Below are positions 24,001 to 30,000 of a stretch of 64,000 bases of DNA, piece after piece. The first letter of the stretch is position 1. Each line of letters begins with the position of its first letter. The position numbers were made by a program. This stretch comes from an uncultured Acidobacteriota bacterium (GTDB lineage: Bacteria; Acidobacteriota; Terriglobia; UBA7540). Location: NCBI GenBank assembly GCA_963804995.1, contig CAWDSK010000005.1, positions 32,001-96,000 of the forward strand. Direction: 5' to 3'.

Positions 24001-27000
24001 ACTTGCCCTCTCCCCTTTAGAGAGGGCCGTTACTCAGCGTGTGGCGCCGTAGGGGCTGGCGCGGCGAACGGTTCTCCAAAGCGGCCAGTCGTTGCGACGA
24101 TGTAACTTTACTTCTGGCCGGAATCACCCCAAGCAAGCATAGAGCGGTCCCCCACTCTTGGGGTCCGCAATTCTTCATTTGAAAAATCCACCACCCGCCA
24201 AATGCACGCGACAATATGCCTACATAGTACACGAAGAACCGGAGAATCACAACGGGGGAGTGCGCTACGATGTTTGCTGCCTCGGCACCGTTAGTTACAA
24301 CCGTAATGTGGACATGCTTCGTAGCGCGGTCCCCCGGTTTTGGGGGCCGCGGTTCTTGGTTTGAAAGGCTGGTTCTTCGCCACCCACCATTCGCTCCGAT
24401 GACATACGAAGAGCCGCAGACCTCAACGGCGGAGGTCTGGTGCGCCGGGATAAACCGGCAGAAAGCAGAGAATGAAAATTTCTCACGAGGAAGGAGTAGC
24501 GATCCACTCGGCCCCGAGTTTTGCGCTGGGCGTCGTGAGGCGCACGGTGAAGCGTAAACAGGGGAATAGGTGGGCTGGGTATTGAGCTTCGAAAATGTCC
24601 AATCAGGACGCCGACGTTTTCAGACTAAACGGAAGGCAACATGAGGCCGGGACGCCAACGCGAGTTCCGGCACAGTCCTGCGTAGTCGTAGACCCCAGAC
24701 ACGCCTAGACACTTTCTGCACGAGAACCGGGAGACCTCGGAGGCGCCGGCCGCCGTAGATCGTGGCCGGACGGCGGGAAAAGGCGATGGCCGTACAGCCC
24801 GCCTGCACGCTTTCGAGGAGTCGGACAGCGGAACAGTACCGATGAATCATTTGAACAAAGACGGGAAGCCGTTGGCGGAGAATGAGGAGGGAAGGCCGCT
24901 GATCAAGGAGAACACCCGTTGGCCTAACACGCACCCGACACAGAGCGGGGCACGCGTGTCCCAGGGACTCGCGGGTGTGCGGAAAGCCGCGAAGGAACAC
25001 AGGGAGATGAAGTTCACGGCCTTGCTCCACCACTTAACGGTCGATCTGCTGCGGGAAAGCTTTTACGCCTTGAAGCGAAAAGCTGCACCGGGAGTAGACG
25101 GCATGACGTGGCAGGAGTATGAAAGCGGGCTGGAAGGTCGACTCGTCGATCTGCACAGCCGGGTCCACCGCGGAGCATTCCGAGCGAAGCCCTCGCGAAG
25201 GGCGTATATCCCGAAAGGCGACGGGCGGCAACGTCCGTTGGGGGTTGCGGCACTGGAGGACAAGATCGTCCAACAGGCCGTGGTCACCATCCTCAAGGCG
25301 ATTTACGAGGAAGACTTTCTGGGCTTCTCGTATGGCTTTCGACCGGGATGCAGCCAGCATCAAGCGCTGGACGCGCTCTCGTACGCGCTCACGGTGAAGC
25401 ACGTGAACTACGTTCTTGACGCGGACATTCGTGGATTTTTCGATTCGATATCCCACGAATGGATGCTCAAGTTCGTGCAGCATCGCGTCGCCGACCCCCG
25501 GATTCTCCGGCTCATCCAGAAATGGCTGAAAGCCGGGGTGAGGGAGGAAGGCGAATGGTCGGAGACGGAGATGGGTACGCCACAAGGGGCGGTGGTCTCG
25601 CCCCTGCTGGCGAATATCTATCTGCACTACGTCTTTGACCTGTGGGTGCAGGCGTGGCGCAAGAAGCACGCCCGGGGAGACGTGGTCGTGGTGCGGTATG
25701 CCGACGATACGGTCCTTGGATTCCAATCGCAGACGGAAGCCGACCGCTTTCTGGAGGATTTCCGGGAGCGGGTGGGGAAGTTTGGATTGGAACTGCATCC
25801 TGACAAAACGCGCCGGATCGAGTTCGGGCCGTTTGCCGAACTTTACCGGAAACGGAGAGGAGAAGGTAAGCCGGAGACGTTCGACTTTCTGGGCTTCACG
25901 CATATCAGCGGGAAGAACCGGAGGGGGCAATTTACCGTGAAGCGGAAGACGATCAGCAAGCGCCTGCGGGGGAAGTTGCAGGAACTCAAGCAACAACTCC
26001 GGCAGCGTCGGCACGATCCCATCGCGGATACGGGTAAATGGCTCCGGTCGGTCGTGCAAGGCTACTTCAACTATCACGCGGTACCGGGAAACCTCGACCG
26101 CCTGCGAATCTTTCGGGAACGGTTGACCCGACTGTGGCGAACACAACTGCGTCAACGCAGTCAACGCCACCGCCTCAACTGGGACCGACTGGGGAAGCTT
26201 GCGGCCTGCTGGTTGCCTGCTCCGCACGTTGTGCATCCTTGGCCATCCCAACGGTTCGCCGCCACACATCCGAGATAAGAGCCGTATGCGCTAACCAGCG
26301 CACGTACGGATCCGTGCGGGGGGTACCGGGTAACCGGTATCCCTACCGCAACCGCTACGGTTCACTGGTGATACCTCCGCCACTGTTGTATTCTGGCCGC
26401 GTGTCACGGCTACGTCGGCTTTTTCTTTCTGATCGGTTCTTCTTCATCACGGTGCGCCTACTGGAGCGCCGCCGCAAATTAGATGATGCCGATTTCGAGC
26501 GTCTGGCACTGGCCATCTCCAGGAGCCGGAAGTCTCATCCCTTCTTCCTAACGGCCTGGGTGTTTCTTCCCAATCACTGGCATGCGATCTGTGCCCTACA
26601 ACATCCGGTGACTATTATTGAAGTCATGAAATCCATCAAAGTCAGCTCGACGACACTCATCAACGAGGGCCGCTCCCGGTCAGGTGGATTGTGGGTGGGC
26701 CGTTATTTTGACCGTGCCCTGCGAACTGTGAAGGAATACCACGAGAAGGTGGACTACATTCACAGGAATCCGGTAAAGGCAGGATTGGTCGGTCGGGCCG
26801 AGGAGTGGCGATGGTCCAGCGCGATCGAGTATTCCGGTGTGAGTGCGGCGGAACAAATGCTCCGCTGCGGGTTGACCATTGATCGGGTGAATCTCCCCTC
26901 GGATTTGAAAACGAGAATCTAGCGTAGCGGCGTCCCCCTTATTGGGTCCGCGGTTCTTGGTTTGCAAAATTCGCAAAACCTCAACATACGGGTGGCTACG

Positions 27001-30000
27001 TTCGCTCAGAGGGAAGACGAAGAACCGCAGACCTCAACGGCGGAGGTCTGCGCTACGAGGTTTGCTCCCTCGGTATCGTTAGCATGAGGCGTAGCGCGGT
27101 CCCCCGGTTTTGGGGTCCGCGGTTCTTCATTTGCAAAATCCGCAAACCCCAACATGCGGGTGGCTGCATTCGCTCCGATGGCACACGAAGAGCCGCAGAC
27201 CTCAACGGCGGAGGTCTGCGCTACGAGGTTTGCAGCCTCTGCATCGTTAGCATGAAGCGTAGCGCGGTCCCCCGCTTTTGGGGTCCGCGGTTCTTGGTTT
27301 GAAAGGCTGGTTCTTCGCCACCCACCATTCGCTCCGATGACATACGAAGAGCCGCAGACCTCAACGGCGGAGGTCTGCGCTACGAGGTTTGCTCCCTCGG
27401 TATCGTTAGCATGAGGCGTAGCGCGGTCCCCCGCTTTTGGGGTCCGCAATTCTTCATTTGCAAAATCCGCAAACCCCAACATACGGGTGGCTGCATTCGC
27501 TCCGATGGCACATGAAGAGCCGCAGACCTCAACGGCGGAGGTCTGCGCTACGGTTGCTTAATGCTTGGGGGCGGGGGAGACCCAGACTCTTCGCGCGGCG
27601 GATTCGCCCAGGTGGGTTGGCTTGTCGCCTATACGCAGGCTAATGGTCCCATCGTAATTGCGGCTCAGGACTTTCAGTTGCACGCCCGGCCGGATGCCCA
27701 GCCGATCGAAGTACTCCAAAAGCTCGCGATCACGCTCGTGCATGCTATCCACTTTGACGGGCGCGCCCGGGGGCGCTTCCCACAATTGTTGCAAGCCCAG
27801 GCGGCGGCGCTCACTGGCGCTCTTGTTGATTTGATTGCCGTGCGGGCAGGAGCCACCGGGGCCGAGTTTGTCGATCAGTCTTTGCTCTACGTCCGCGGAA
27901 ATAGCGTGCTCCAGGCGCTCCGCCTCGTCGTGGACCTTATACCACTCCATCCCCAGCAGTTCGTGGAGCATGCGCTCCACCAGGTGATGGCGCAGTTGCA
28001 GTTTTTCAGAGATGCTGCGCCCCGCCGCGGTCAGAGAGATGCGGCCTTTCTGATCAACTTTCACCAGATTATCGCGGCGCAGCCGGCGCAACGCCAGCGC
28101 CACCGCCGGAGCGCTTACCTCCAGCCAGCGGGCAATAGTGGCCGCAATGACGGCGCCCTCTTCGGCGTCAGCCTCCGCAATGGCCTTCAGGTAATCCTCT
28201 TTTGAAATCGTGAGCTTCACGGCGCCTGCCCCCTTCGGTTTCTCGAAGCCTGCAACTTTTCCATCATGCCAGCGCCGGGACTTTCACGCAACAGCCAATA
28301 CGTTAAGATAAGGGATCACAAAGTTCTTGACATGCGGCAACGTCTATAGTTAACTATGGTTAATTAGAAACAGGAAGCATAGATAAATACGCGCGGCGGC
28401 CGTCCGCGGTTTAAGGGTTCGACGGGGCCGGCGGGCGTGGGAGCGGATGGAATGATGGCCCGGATAGTGGTTCTCAGCCTTTTGATCATGAGCGTACAGG
28501 GTCTCTGCCCTTCGGTGAGCCGGGCGCAGGGGGAAACCACCAGCGCCATTGTCGGCCAAGTGACTGACGCTACCAACTCGTTCATTCCCGCTGCCACGGT
28601 GACGGTTACCAATCTCGAGACTGGTTTCGAGCGGCGCGCCCAGACGGACGGTGACGGCCGATTCAACTTTCCCCAACTCAAGCCCGGCTCCTACTCCGTC
28701 AAAGTTGAGGCGAAGGGGTTCGAACCCCAGCAAGTTGGCCCGGTGCTGGCGGGTTTGGGCCAGAAGCAGACCGTCACCTGTGTTCTTCAAGTGGCGCGGG
28801 CGCAACTGACGGTGGAAGTAAGCGCGGCCGCGGCCCTGATCAACCCGGAAAACGCCAATACCTCGACAACACTCAATGCCCCGGCGCTCGAAGACCTCCC
28901 CAATCCGGGTGGGGATTTGACCTACCCTTTGCAGTTTGCCACCGGCGCCCTGATCAACACGGCGGGCAGCGGCAATGATTTCGTGGGAGGGACGAACGGG
29001 TACGGCAACGTGGAATTCAACGGGCTGCCGGCGCTATCCAACGGTTACATCGTGGACGGCCTCGAAACCAACGATCCGCTCACCAACCTCAACAGCGGTC
29101 TTTCCACAAACCTGGTTCTGGGGCTCAATTCCATTTCGGAGGTTACGGTCAATACGCTTTCCTACGCCGTTGACGAAGGGCGCTATGGAGCGGCCCAGGT
29201 CAACTACGTGACCAAATCCGGCACCAACCACTTCCACGGTAATCTCTATGAGCTGTGGAATGGTTCCAAGCTCAACGCCGCCGATTTTTTCACCAACGCC
29301 ACGCCCGGAAATCACAAGCCCCGCTCGACGGTAAACCACTTCGGGGGCAGCCTGGGTGGGCCGATCGTGCGCGACAAGCTCTTTTTCTTCTTCGACAGCG
29401 AATGGGTTCGGATCGCGCTGCCCATCGTCACGCCCACGACCGTCCCCACGCAGGCCTTCCAACAATACGTTTTGCAACAACTCCCGCTGGGTGGCACTGA
29501 TGCCGTAACCGGATCAAGTTACCCGGGCGCTCCGCAACTGGTACCGTTTTATCAAAAGATGTTTTCCCTGTATGGAAATACCCGGGGCACGCCGCTCGCC
29601 GTCCTGGGATGTCCGTTTAATGCCGATGGCAGCCAGGCGCCGGGGAGTCCGGCGAACGGAAATGGTTGCGCCAACCGGCAAAGTGTTTCGCACTCCAGCG
29701 ACGACCACGAGCAGGTGCAGACGGTGCGCATCGACTACAACCGCAGCGAGCGGAATACGGCGTGGTTCCGTTTTCAGGCGGACACGGGTGTGCAAGCTGC
29801 CTACACCGACCCCATCAATCCCTTGTTTGACGCGTTCTCGCCCCAGCCGCTCTATTCCTTTGCCGCCGGGCATACCCACGTCTTTTCCCAGAATTTGGTG
29901 AACTACTTCAATCCCGCGTTTTCCTGGTACGGGAGTTTGTTCGCGCCCAGCGATTACGCAAAGACACTGGCGGCCTTTCCCATTGTCCTCCAAGGGATGG

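What a model noticed while it worked through the whole genome (the two positions that open the first line are those of the whole stretch)
24417..27545. Burst of ~40 near-identical group II introns that home into one exact position of GTAG-type REP hairpins
One ORF-bearing group II intron (1.92 kb, RT of 478 aa without endonuclease domain, Rfam D1-D4-6 type) is present in about 40 copies at 98-99.9% identity. Every copy whose 5' flank is assembled sits immediately 3' of the stem of a genome-wide REP-like palindrome (CRGACCYC-N7-8-GRGGTCYG) and 5' of its tail CGCTAC (complement GTAGCG, the GTAG tag of RAYT-mobilised REPs) or CGCCAGCC. The intron therefore parasitises another repeat family, occupying about one sixth of its ~200 sites, including the REPs that flank two RAYT genes (g03181, g04978). 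Copies also end four contigs, i.e. they break the assembly.
Evidence so far: BLAST of one copy against the genome: 40 copies (36 of 1.9-2.1 kb, 4 cut by contig ends), 98.0-99.9% identity; 49 RVT_1 genes, 38 of them the 478-aa RT. The 5' exon of 36 of 36 assessable copies folds into the 7-8 bp hairpin ending exactly at the splice site (35 with dG<=-8 kcal/mol); 3' exon CGCTAC (22) or CGCCAGCC/CGCCATCG (14). Regex scan: 206 distinct hairpin sites, 91% intergenic, 199 orientable, 135 followed by CGCTA, 28 by CGCCA, 33 by the intron 5' end GTGCG. RAYT g03181 (C5:58314-58922) has the invaded REP at 56417 and four empty REPs at 59028-59545; RAYT g04978 has an invaded REP at C6:722218. Tandem copies at C6:2168567-2172697 and C7:1-3900. 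The second ORF-bearing family (D1-D4-4 [...]
(Added by a program. Inside this text positions count along the whole contig: contig position 32,001 is position 1 of the stretch shown here. "Call 12" and the like, gene names such as g00115 and contig names such as C1 are that model's own, and its searches are not shown. The text may have been shortened before it was handed on; [...] marks where a part breaks off. The agent that wrote the report below was given it as the finding of a first reader that could run no searches.)

Follow-up and report, generated by a model that had tools for sequence, protein, structure and literature searches.

The report
Group II intron homing into REP repeats
A mobile self-splicing intron has recently copied itself about 40 times in this soil acidobacterium by base-pairing to one half of a small hairpin repeat (REP), almost only where that repeat faces the direction of DNA replication.

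Summary
A 1,913-nt ORF-bearing group II intron (window 24440-26352) has 40 BLAST matches in the genome: 38 full-length, 2 cut by contig ends, 99.5-100% identical. All 38 copies with an assembled 5' flank sit at one position of a REP palindrome. Three RAYT genes are each flanked by their own REP variant.

- The intron lies inside the stem, 2 bp from its base (35 of 37 sites).
- It is not a hairpin-seeking class C (IIC) intron. Domain V has the AGC triad and full length, the D1 family is Rfam D1D4-6 rather than D1D4-3, and its guide loop EBS1 (CAGACU) pairs with the last 5-6 nt of the REP 3' arm.
- Occupancy follows that pairing: GTCTG 34 of 164 sites, GTCCG 4 of 102, other REP variants 0 of 193. 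Relatives carry guides changed to match other REP variants.

New here: 28 of 29 copies on contigs of clear GC-skew polarity face with the G-rich strand, against 28 co-oriented and 69 anti-oriented empty sites. This fits insertion into the lagging-strand template.

I rate it a new variant of a known kind. This scan noted REP-homing introns before on other DNA.

The parts
24321..24352 (-). Left REP of the invaded REP doublet (REPIN-like). It reads GTAGCG plus hairpin CGGTCCCCC..GGGGGCCG. On its own strand it ends ..GGACCG|CGCTAC, a variant that is never invaded.
   Evidence: Sequence. The GACCG|CGCTAC class has 105 empty and 0 occupied sites.
24415..24439 (+). 5' part of the invaded right REP: 5' arm CGCAGACCTC, loop AACGGCG, 3' arm GAGGTCTG. 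The last 6 nt, GGTCTG, are IBS1.
24440..26352 (+). Group II intron, 1,913 nt, GTGCG...AAC.
24475..24695 (+). Domain I core matching Rfam group-II-D1D4-6 (173 bits, full model).
24621..24626 (+). EBS1, CAGACU, in the terminal loop UUCAGACUA. It is complementary to GGUCUG, with one G-U pair.
   Evidence: Rfam alignment. The loop covaries with the 5' exon end in relatives.
24842..26278 (+). Intron-encoded reverse transcriptase/maturase, 478 aa, with YADD present and no endonuclease domain.
   Evidence: Intact in 37 of 38 full copies.
26277..26352 (+). Domains V and VI. Domain V is 26279-26312 with an AGC triad and aligns to the full model.
   Evidence: RF00029, 39.2 bits against a cut-off of 40.
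26353..26358 (+). 3' exon start CGCTAC. CG completes the REP stem. The complement GTAGCG is the GTAG tail of the REP.
26404..26922 (+). RAYT (REP-associated tyrosine transposase), 172 aa from GTG 26404. The start is inferred from the paralogue that begins MSRLRRL.
   Evidence: NF047646 at 111 bits against a cut-off of 80. Paralogue at C2.
26925..27551 (.). Array of REP doublets 3' of the RAYT, with four empty GTCTG|CGCTAC target sites. Insertion points are after 27050, 27218, 27377 and 27545. All four face the same way as the filled one.

Best explanation
This is an autonomous group II intron whose protein lacks the endonuclease domain. It belongs to an Acidobacteriota-wide family with Rfam D1D4-6 type RNA that is neither class C/IIC nor class D. 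Its homing site has become a multi-copy REP.

Shown:
- Loop EBS1 (CAGACU, intron nt 182-187) is complementary to the last 5-6 nt of the REP 3' arm (GGTCTG).
- The intron always lies between that G and the CGC that follows.
- It fills REPs of two RAYT systems that share GRGGTCTG|CGC, and avoids REP variants that differ in those 5 nt.
- Relatives carry EBS1 loops changed to match other REP variants.
- Copies are near-identical, their ORFs are intact, and they lie in REP copies whose own flanks differ from one another.
- Copies face with the G-rich strand, while the remaining empty sites face mostly the other way.

Inferred:
- The spliced intron RNP reverse-splices into the REP when it is single-stranded on the lagging-strand template at a replication fork.
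- EBS1 displaces the REP's own 5' arm, which has nearly the same sequence (CAGACC).
- With no endonuclease, a nascent lagging strand primes cDNA synthesis.
- The burst is recent and has filled about half of the sites in the permissive orientation.
- Because the insertion separates the REP stem from its GTAG tail, filled REPs are probably no longer RAYT substrates.
For: Copies and flanks. There are 40 matches, and 38 of 38 assessable 5' flanks end in the REP arm.

Pairing and occupancy. EBS1 lies in the D1 terminal loop. Filled sites are GTCTG 34 of 164, GTCCG 4 of 102, and GACCG+CTCTG+GTATG+CCCTG 0 of 193. Fisher p is 1e-4 and 4e-13.

One intron, two REP families. No intron subfamily goes with REP family A or B, and EBS1 is invariant in all 38 copies.

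Covariation in relatives.
- L009: CGGAC with GTCCG.
- L005: TGCATTGG with CCAATGCA.
- L019: TGTAAT with ATTACA.
- Own genome, C1:440866: CAGAGC with GCTCTG.
- G005: 6 of 6 copies lie in REP hairpins and carry EBS1 CGGAC.
- Gene-less forms: L098 CGGAC/GTCCG and L099 CATAC/GTATG.

Not structure-seeking as a family. The 55 non-REP target sites of relatives fold no better than their flanks (-3.0 against -4.1 kcal/mol).

Strand bias. On six contigs of clear skew, introns are 28 co-oriented and 1 anti-oriented, and empty GTCTG sites are 28 and 69 (Fisher 2e-11). With local skew windows 31-35 of 40 copies are co-oriented, p from 1e-6 to 1e-10. Gene-strand bias agrees in sign on all six contigs. Flanking-gene direction does not explain the bias: the upstream gene is on the same strand in 21 cases and on the opposite strand in 14.

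No endonuclease family was hit.

Published background, passages only. En-minus introns use the fork for priming (PMC4424553). RmInt1 and RmInt2 targets lie mainly on the lagging-strand template (PMC5894124).
Against: - IBS1 lies inside a stem of 8-10 bp (mean predicted DNA dG -12.3 kcal/mol), so hairpin formation should compete with a 6-bp EBS1 pairing.
- The 9-mer GGTCTG|CGC is not enough. 140 such sites have no hairpin, 15 of them co-oriented and intergenic, and none is filled. So further REP features are read, and these data cannot say whether they are structure or sequence (-8 G, -10 C, +4 Y, +5 A).
- Four copies sit at GTCCG, with an A-C mismatch at -2.
- No EBS2 was found.
- GC skew is weak (1-3%). 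Three contigs holding 11 copies have no clear polarity.
- No origin or terminus was mapped.
- Splicing and mobility were not observed. The laid runs were short contigs only.
Confidence: 0.78

Rival explanations
1. The intron finds its sites as class C (IIC) introns do. It recognises the DNA stem-loop as a structure, with only a short IBS1, and REPs are simply the most abundant hairpins in this genome.
For: All 38 insertions are at hairpins. None of the 140 GGTCTGCGC sites without a hairpin is filled. No EBS2 is detectable, and positions -7 to -13 differ between the two invaded REP families. The ribozyme is small, 476 nt outside the ORF. IIC introns are reported after terminators 'or other inverted repeats' (PMC1702495, abstract).
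Against: - Domain V has AGC and aligns to the full model. IIC introns have CGC and a distal stem 2 bp shorter (PMC1702495, introduction passages).
- EBS1-IBS1 is 5-6 bp, not 3-4.
- The site is inside the stem, not 3-11 nt after it.
- The RNA family is D1D4-6. The IIC crystal-structure intron is D1D4-3 (PMC3965019, passages), and so is a terminator-homing control from S. meliloti.
- REP hairpins of the same shape and tail but with other arm sequences are never used (0 of 193).
- Relatives of the same family mostly sit at unstructured sites.
Confidence: 0.12
2. The copies spread as passengers. One REP doublet that had received an intron was then multiplied by the RAYT, so the intron did not home 40 times.
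For: RAYT genes are present and intact-looking. Two tandem pairs share identical 3' flanks (C6:2168574-2172663).
Against: The intron is 99.8% identical between copies. The 45 nt of REP doublet just 5' of it differ widely from copy to copy, and the 3' flanks are unrelated beyond 6-8 nt. Copies lie in two different REP families served by different RAYTs. The insertion separates the REP stem from its GTAG tail.
Confidence: 0.03
3. The strand bias is not mechanistic. Insertions occur in both orientations, and those whose RT gene or RNA runs head-on to replication, or antisense to neighbouring genes, are removed by selection.
For: Gene-strand bias exists in the same direction (45-59% per contig). 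Head-on transcription is known to be costly (general knowledge, recalled).
Against: The copies are very young, 3.5 differences per 1,913 nt between pairs, which leaves little time for purging to reach 28:1. Orientation relative to the upstream gene is only 21:14, like the empty sites at 70:57. The same bias is documented experimentally for other En-minus introns (PMC5894124, passages).
Confidence: 0.08

Closest known systems
RmInt1 and RmInt2 of Sinorhizobium meliloti (bacterial class D, IIB3)
   Same: The protein has no endonuclease domain and the introns are about 1.9 kb. They home by base pairing into a multi-copy mobile element (ISRm2011-2, ISRm17) and so reach many copies per genome. They prefer targets on the lagging-strand template (PMC5894124, passages).
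   Different: The RT is only 33.7% identical. RmInt1 RNA is Rfam D1D4-2, against D1D4-6 here. In the tree RmInt1 sits on a very long branch. The target here is a non-coding REP hairpin of a RAYT system, not an insertion sequence, and no EBS2 pairing was found.
Class C (IIC) introns, e.g. B.h.I1, and IIC-attC introns such as S.ma.I2
   Same: They insert at DNA stem-loops outside genes, have no endonuclease domain, have small ribozymes and can reach high copy numbers. IIC-attC introns also use a repeated recombination hairpin and insert directly after or into its stem-loop (PMC7923331 and PMC4424553, passages).
   Different: The tested IIC RNA features are not met: D5 triad and length, EBS1 length, D1 family, and distance from the stem. 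[quoted passage not shown]
REP-targeting insertion sequences (ISPpu9, ISPpu10, ISPa11, IS1397), and the P. putida KT2440 group II intron listed with 2 of 9 copies REP-associated
   Same: A mobile element uses REPs as a safe, repeated landing site (PMC1525189, table passage).
   Different: Those are DNA transposons. The one intron entry is a minority association that the passage I saw does not analyse. Here 38 of 38 copies are at one nucleotide position, with a matching RNA guide.
D1D4-6 introns on Klebsiella and Enterobacter plasmids (ltrA between umuD and parM) and in S. meliloti (L080)
   Same: The RNA family is the same (186.6 and 146.8 bits). RT identity is 56.7% and 52%. The 5' end is GTGCGCCGGG... 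in the Klebsiella copy.
   Different: These are single-copy per plasmid at other target sequences, and EBS1 differs (ACUGU with ACAGT in L082).

Membership tests
Group II intron (mobile, ORF-bearing) | 5' GUGYG and 3' AY boundaries | tested here: met
   GTGCG...AAC. The boundary is unique when compared with empty sites.
Group II intron (mobile, ORF-bearing) | Domain I-IV and domain V/VI RNA structure | tested here: met
   RF02005 scores 173 bits over the full model. RF00029 scores 39.2 bits, E 1e-5, 0.8 bit under the curated cut-off.
Group II intron (mobile, ORF-bearing) | RT/maturase encoded in domain IV | tested here: met
   TIGR04416 at 342.5 bits against a cut-off of 300, and RVT_1 at 136 bits.
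Group II intron (mobile, ORF-bearing) | Splicing and retromobility | not testable with these tools
   Inferred only, from 40 near-identical copies at homologous sites.
Class C / IIC | Domain V with a CGC triad and a distal stem 2 bp shorter (PMC1702495, introduction passages) | tested here: not met
   D5 reads GAGCC..., i.e. AGC, and aligns to the full model.
Class C / IIC | IBS1-EBS1 of 3-4 bp | tested here: not met
   CAGAC(U) with (G)GUCUG gives 5-6 bp. In relatives the pairing reaches 8 bp.
Class C / IIC | No EBS2; a stem-loop stands in the place of IBS2 | tested here: inconclusive
   A complementarity scan over 61 sequences found no convincing EBS2. A stem-loop is present, but it contains IBS1.
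Class C / IIC | Insertion a few nt after a terminator or attC stem-loop | tested here: not met
   Insertion is 2 bp inside the stem in 35 of 37 sites, and there is no T-run.
Class C / IIC | RNA family shared with bona fide IIC introns | tested here: not met
   Ours is D1D4-6. The O. iheyensis structure 4FAW is D1D4-3 (PMC3965019, passages). The S. meliloti D1D4-3 intron L083 sits after a GC hairpin plus TTTTT.
Class D (RmInt1-like) | RT and RNA close to RmInt1 | tested here: not met
   RT identity is 33.7% and RmInt1 RNA is D1D4-2. L081 was taken to be RmInt1 from its 419-aa protein on pSymA, which is a recalled label.
Class E or the later 'g/G' varieties | Placement in an RT/X-domain phylogeny with reference sequences | not tested
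   No labelled reference set was at hand. S. meliloti is said to hold classes C, D, E and G (PMC5894124, passages). C and D are excluded for the D1D4-6 relative L080 only by elimination.
REP/RAYT system (REPINs) | A RAYT gene | tested here: met
   NF047646 scores 111.3, 115.9 and 112.6 bits against a cut-off of 80 for the window, C6 and C2 genes.
REP/RAYT system (REPINs) | The RAYT is flanked by the genome-wide palindromes with a GTAG tail | tested here: met
   Each of the three RAYTs is flanked by its own REP variant.
REP/RAYT system (REPINs) | REPs arranged as inverted doublets | tested here: met
   Left-type GACCG sites number 105. Right-type GTCTG|CGCTAC sites number 86 empty plus about 20 filled. 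They alternate at 110-150 nt.
REP/RAYT system (REPINs) | RAYT cleaves or mobilises these REPs | not testable with these tools
   No evidence from these tools.

The most novel reading that the evidence does not exclude
In this acidobacterial genus a whole radiation of group II introns, both RT-coding and about 650-nt gene-less forms, lives as hyperparasites of REP/RAYT systems. Each lineage re-programmes one RNA loop (EBS1) to copy the 5' arm of a particular REP variant. It invades that variant's 3' arm on the lagging-strand template and, by cutting the stem off from its GTAG tail, switches the REP off as a RAYT substrate. REP stem diversification and intron guide diversification would then be an arms race between two selfish elements. 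The strand-specific filling would be a natural record of fork-coupled retrohoming.
Probability: 0.3. Interest if true: 0.75.

Novelty: new variant of a known kind. Interest (0 to 1): 0.62.

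Why it matters
Three target habits are listed for bacterial group II introns: sequence-specific homing sites, terminators and attC sites (PMC4424553, passages). 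Structure-associated sites are credited to class C only.

Here a non-C lineage uses the most abundant hairpin repeat of its host as a homing site, by plain guide-RNA pairing. That explains how an En-minus intron outside classes C and CL reached 40 copies, when most genomes hold 3 or fewer (PMC8919778, passages).

The genome also carries its own control. Identical empty sites in both orientations make the replication-strand bias measurable without an experiment: about 50% are filled in one orientation and about 1% in the other.

The case links two selfish systems that both act on single-stranded DNA at the fork, the RAYT/REP system and the intron.

Practically, such introns break assemblies at REPs and shift gene starts, as with the RAYT ORF here.

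In the full-text searches I ran I found no description of REP-directed homing by a group II intron:
-, 'group II intron' + 'repetitive extragenic palindromic': 9 papers. I read passages of two of them for this point, PMC1525189 and PMC2936281. One preprint, 10.64898/2026.09.22.753630, could not be opened.
-, 'group II intron' + REP + RAYT: 2 papers, one listed and read in passages.

Subscription journals are not covered.

Tried and rejected
- Naming the IEP class. Literature look-ups for the Rfam D1D4-6 to class mapping gave only that the IIC crystal-structure intron is D1D4-3. The search for the Klebsiella plasmid intron's class gave nothing. Robart 2007 (PMC1871835) is not held.
- PDB sequence search. 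The best match is a IIB-type maturase RT (6me0, E 6e-41, aligned 22-444). IIC RTs scored about the same, but over the RT domain only. Not decisive.
- EBS2 search by a column-wise complementarity scan. It gave only noise besides EBS1.
- Public sequencing runs. Only short assembled contigs were available. They hold pieces identical to the intron, and one RNA-library contig of 338 nt is identical to part of the RT ORF. They show no bridging of this locus, no ligated exons and no empty allele of this site. The loose end at 24439 that continues CGCTAC belongs to other REP copies.
- Hairpin-seeking as a family trait: rejected.
- Intron subfamilies specialised for REP family A or B: rejected. The shared SNPs are mosaic.
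- Flanking-gene orientation as the cause of the strand bias: rejected, though with crude GC3-based gene calls of my own.
- The careful tree search did not finish. Only the quick IQ-TREE tree was used.

Full report
WHAT IS THERE

The window is G000:C5:32001-96000 of a 7.55-Mb, 9-contig, 58% G+C genome. RT relatives come almost only from Acidobacteriota/Terriglobia records.

At window 24440-26352 lies a 1,913-nt group II intron.
- It starts GTGCG and ends AAC.
- Rfam D1D4-6 scores 173 bits over the full model at 24475-24695.
- Domains V/VI (RF00029) score 39.2 bits at 26277-26352, just under the cut-off of 40.
- It holds a 478-aa RT/maturase ORF at 24842-26278. The ORF matches RVT_1 and TIGR04416 (342 bits) and no endonuclease family.

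The 5' exon ends in CGCAGACCTC-AACGGCG-GAGGTCTG, and the 3' exon starts CGCTAC. Four uninterrupted copies of the same palindrome, GAGGTCTG|CGCTAC, follow at 27025-27551. They fix the boundary to the nucleotide.

Between the intron and that array lies a RAYT gene (NF047646, 111 bits against a cut-off of 80). The ORF listed from 26314 begins inside the intron. Comparison with the C2 paralogue, which begins MSRLRRL, puts the real start at GTG 26404.

COPY NUMBER AND AGE

BLAST of the intron against the genome gives 40 matches. 38 are full-length, one is cut at the start of C2 (intron nt 1-644), and one is cut at the start of C7 (from nt 10).
- The 38 full copies differ at 22 columns. Mean pairwise identity is 99.82% and the minimum is 99.48%.
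- 37 of 38 ORFs are intact. C6:1170276 has a 1-nt insertion.
- The shared polymorphisms are mosaic among copies. This fits gene conversion between copies or consensus polishing, and I cannot tell which.
- Four contig ends lie in or next to a copy.

THE TARGET

All 38 copies with an assembled 5' flank end in a hairpin arm: 34 in ...GTCTG and 4 in ...GTCCG. 39 copies have an assembled 3' flank: 24 begin CGCTAC and 15 begin CGCCA (CGCCAGCC and two variants). These are two REP families.

Family A (loop 7 nt, tail CGCTAC) forms inverted doublets with a second REP type that ends GGACCG|CGCTAC. Family B has an 8-nt loop and the tail CGCCAGCC.

Each of three RAYT genes is flanked by its own variant:
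- the window gene by family A;
- C6:722333-722710 (115.9 bits) by family B;
- C2:304833-305306 (112.6 bits) by a CTCTG|CGCTAC variant.

When the empty site is rebuilt from the two exons, the predicted DNA stem includes +1 and +2 in 35 of 37 cases (mean dG -12.3 kcal/mol). The intron therefore lies inside the stem, 2 bp from its base. It separates the stem from the GTAG tail.

CENSUS

I scanned the genome for hairpins (8-nt arms, at most 1 mismatch, loop 4-11) followed by CGCNA or by the intron 5' end. Counting by the last 5 nt of the 3' arm gives:

| Last 5 nt of 3' arm | Empty | Filled |
|---|---|---|
| GTCTG | 130 | 34 |
| GTCCG | 98 | 4 |
| GACCG | 105 | 0 |
| CTCTG | 61 | 0 |
| GTATG | 20 | 0 |
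| CCCTG | 7 | 0 |

GTCTG against GTCCG gives Fisher p 1e-4. GTCTG against the four unused variants gives p 4e-13. REPs of the same shape and the same tail are thus used or ignored according to 5 nt of arm sequence.

THE GUIDE

In the Rfam alignment, the terminal loop of the D1 stem GCCGACG...CGGAAGGC reads UUCAGACUA. CAGACU (window 24621-24626) is complementary to GGUCUG.

Across about 60 relatives from other genomes, the loop at this position changes together with the last 5-8 nt of the 5' exon:
- L009: CGGAC with GTCCG, in a REP hairpin followed by CGCTAC.
- L005: TGCATTGG with CCAATGCA.
- L019-21: TGTAAT with ATTACA.
- L077: TGGTC with GACCA.

In the nearest species representative (G005, intron 90% identical) 6 of 6 full copies lie in REP hairpins ...G[T/G/C]CCG|CGCT and carry EBS1 CGGAC. 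One of the six pairs perfectly; five have one mismatch.

Gene-less derivatives of about 650 nt in other species of the genus show CGGAC with GTCCG (L098) and CATAC with GTATG (L099). A related element in the window's own genome (C1:440866) shows CAGAGC with GCTCTG. That element was noted before by this scan (e1-7689323).

The 40 copies show no variant that goes with REP family A or B, and EBS1 is invariant.

WHICH KIND OF INTRON

Hairpin-associated insertion is the hallmark of class C (IIC). The IIC features given in PMC1702495 (introduction passages) are a CGC triad in domain V, a distal stem 2 bp shorter, an EBS1 of 3-4 bp, no EBS2, and a splice site 3-11 nt after the stem-loop. Here domain V has AGC and aligns to the full model, EBS1 is 5-6 bp, and the site is inside the stem.

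The O. iheyensis IIC structure is Rfam D1D4-3 (PMC3965019, passages). As a control run through the same tools, a S. meliloti replicon holds D1D4-3 introns that sit behind GGCCCCGCC-ACCCCG-GGCGGGGCC-TTTTT. It also holds a D1D4-6 intron at an unstructured site.

RmInt1 (class D) is D1D4-2, and its RT is 33.7% identical to ours.

The closest annotated relatives are the very common ltrA intron of Klebsiella/Enterobacter plasmids (56.7%, D1D4-6) and the S. meliloti L080 intron (52%).

I could not name the IEP class; E or one of the later varieties is possible. No labelled reference set was at hand.

The 55 non-REP target sites of relatives fold no better than their flanks (-3.0 against -4.1 kcal/mol). 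The family as a whole therefore homes by sequence.

In a quick tree the window's RT and the G005 RTs form a supported REP-homing clade. Other REP-site introns lie elsewhere, so the habit needs at least 2-3 changes (the careful search did not finish).

STRAND BIAS

GC skew is weak but of one sign on six contigs: C3, C4 and C6 negative, C5, C7 and C8 positive. My crude gene calls show gene-strand bias of the same sign on all six.

On these contigs 28 of 29 intron copies have their sense strand on the G-rich strand. The exception is C3:231098. Eleven copies lie on contigs without clear polarity. Empty GTCTG sites are 28 co-oriented and 69 anti-oriented (Fisher p 2e-11). Adding filled and empty gives 56 against 70, so REPs were about evenly oriented before the burst. 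About half of the co-oriented sites and about 1% of the others are now filled.

For family B with a perfect stem the counts are 7 filled and 2 empty co-oriented, against 0 filled and 16 empty anti-oriented.

Local skew windows of 150-500 kb give 31-35 of 40 copies co-oriented, with p from 1e-6 to 1e-10.

Orientation relative to the upstream gene is 21 same and 14 opposite, much like the empty sites at 70 and 57. All 39 assessed copies are intergenic.

If the G-rich strand is the leading strand, as in most bacteria (general knowledge), the intron RNA entered the strand that serves as lagging-strand template. This is the bias reported for En-minus introns, which depend on nascent strands for priming (PMC4424553 and PMC5894124, passages).

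WHAT REMAINS OPEN

The 9-mer GGTCTG|CGC alone is not enough. 140 such sites lack the hairpin and none is filled, including 15 that are co-oriented and intergenic.

Sites matching the longer shared motif GRGGTCTG|CGCYA outside REPs are too few to separate structure from sequence: 12, of which 3 are co-oriented and intergenic.

Because IBS1 is part of the stem, EBS1 must compete with the REP's own 5' arm (CAGACC), which it closely resembles. Whether the hairpin helps (for instance by marking or stalling single-stranded DNA) or hinders is not known.

Splicing, mobility and any effect on RAYT activity are inferred, not shown. Public runs gave only short contigs.

COMPARISON AND NOVELTY

REPs are known targets of insertion sequences. 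One table lists the P. putida KT2440 group II intron with 2 of 9 copies REP-associated (PMC1525189, table passage). RAYT appears in a list of genes found next to group II intron RTs (PMC8934634, passage).

My full-text searches found no account of REP-directed homing by a group II intron (9 papers, of which I read passages of two for this point; 2 papers, one listed and read in passages). One preprint from the first list could not be opened, and subscription journals are not covered.

Earlier notes of this scan describe REP-homing introns in other genomes (e1-6689829, e1-7540293, e1-7757773 and others). They are unchecked leads. The reading of e1-6689829 agrees with what I tested here.

I rate this a new variant of a known kind: an ordinary En-minus retrohoming mechanism, with an unusual and very successful choice of homing site and a clean in-genome signature of fork-coupled insertion.

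Noticed in passing
G000 contig C1:440866-441118 (locus L104), minus strand: A second D1D4-6-type intron-like element (114.6 bits) starts GATAGCGCC right after the hairpin CAGAGC-TGAGCTT-GCTCTG. Its EBS1-position loop reads CAGAGC. That matches the CTCTG REP variant that the 40-copy intron never uses. BLAST found no domain V downstream.
   Followed up: partly
Loci L097-L100 (G013, G006, G018, G007), and joints 24913>26318 and 24983>26255: Gene-less derivatives of about 650 nt (5' about 545 nt plus 3' about 105 nt) occur in several species of the genus and in peat and sediment metagenome contigs. Some begin GAAAGCG instead of GTGCG.
   Followed up: partly
Locus L082 (Klebsiella pneumoniae plasmid pKPC-LK30), about 1055-1070: The very common enterobacterial plasmid ltrA intron (same RNA family) sits at TACTGGTTATGCATACAGT|ATATTT, just upstream of umuD on the other strand. 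The CTG-N10-CAG palindrome looks like a LexA box, which is a recalled motif that I did not test.
   Followed up: no
All 38 full intron copies: Nine shared polymorphic columns (58, 373, 732, 858, 910, 1103, 1381, 1658, 1705) occur in nearly all combinations. This suggests gene conversion between copies or mixing of repeat copies during assembly polishing.
   Followed up: no
G000 C5:1086397, C5:1125547, C6:295292, C6:297248, C4:162021, C1:26832; also C1:97456, C1:290128, C3:1126898: Two further group II intron families, of 6 and 3 copies, give weaker D1D4-6 scores (73 and 58 bits). They sit at non-REP sites. Earlier scan notes place one copy inside a sensor-kinase gene.
   Followed up: no
Window 25034-26269, minus strand: A 411-aa ORF runs antisense to the RT gene. 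It is most likely a by-product of G+C-rich coding sequence and was not examined.
   Followed up: no
Window 27558-28220 (-), 28437-31928 (+), 21372-22973 (+): The neighbours are a DtxR/MntR-type metal repressor with a FeoA domain, a 1,163-aa CarboxypepD_reg plus outer-membrane beta-barrel protein, and a BlaR1-M56/TonB_C protein. They are ordinary genes with no link to the intron.
   Followed up: partly
Window 45158-48852 (+): Five tRNA genes all lie on the plus strand. This is consistent with plus being the leading strand on this contig.
   Followed up: no
G000 C3:230429-231097: The only clearly anti-oriented intron copy sits in the last unit of a tandem array of five REP doublets.
   Followed up: no
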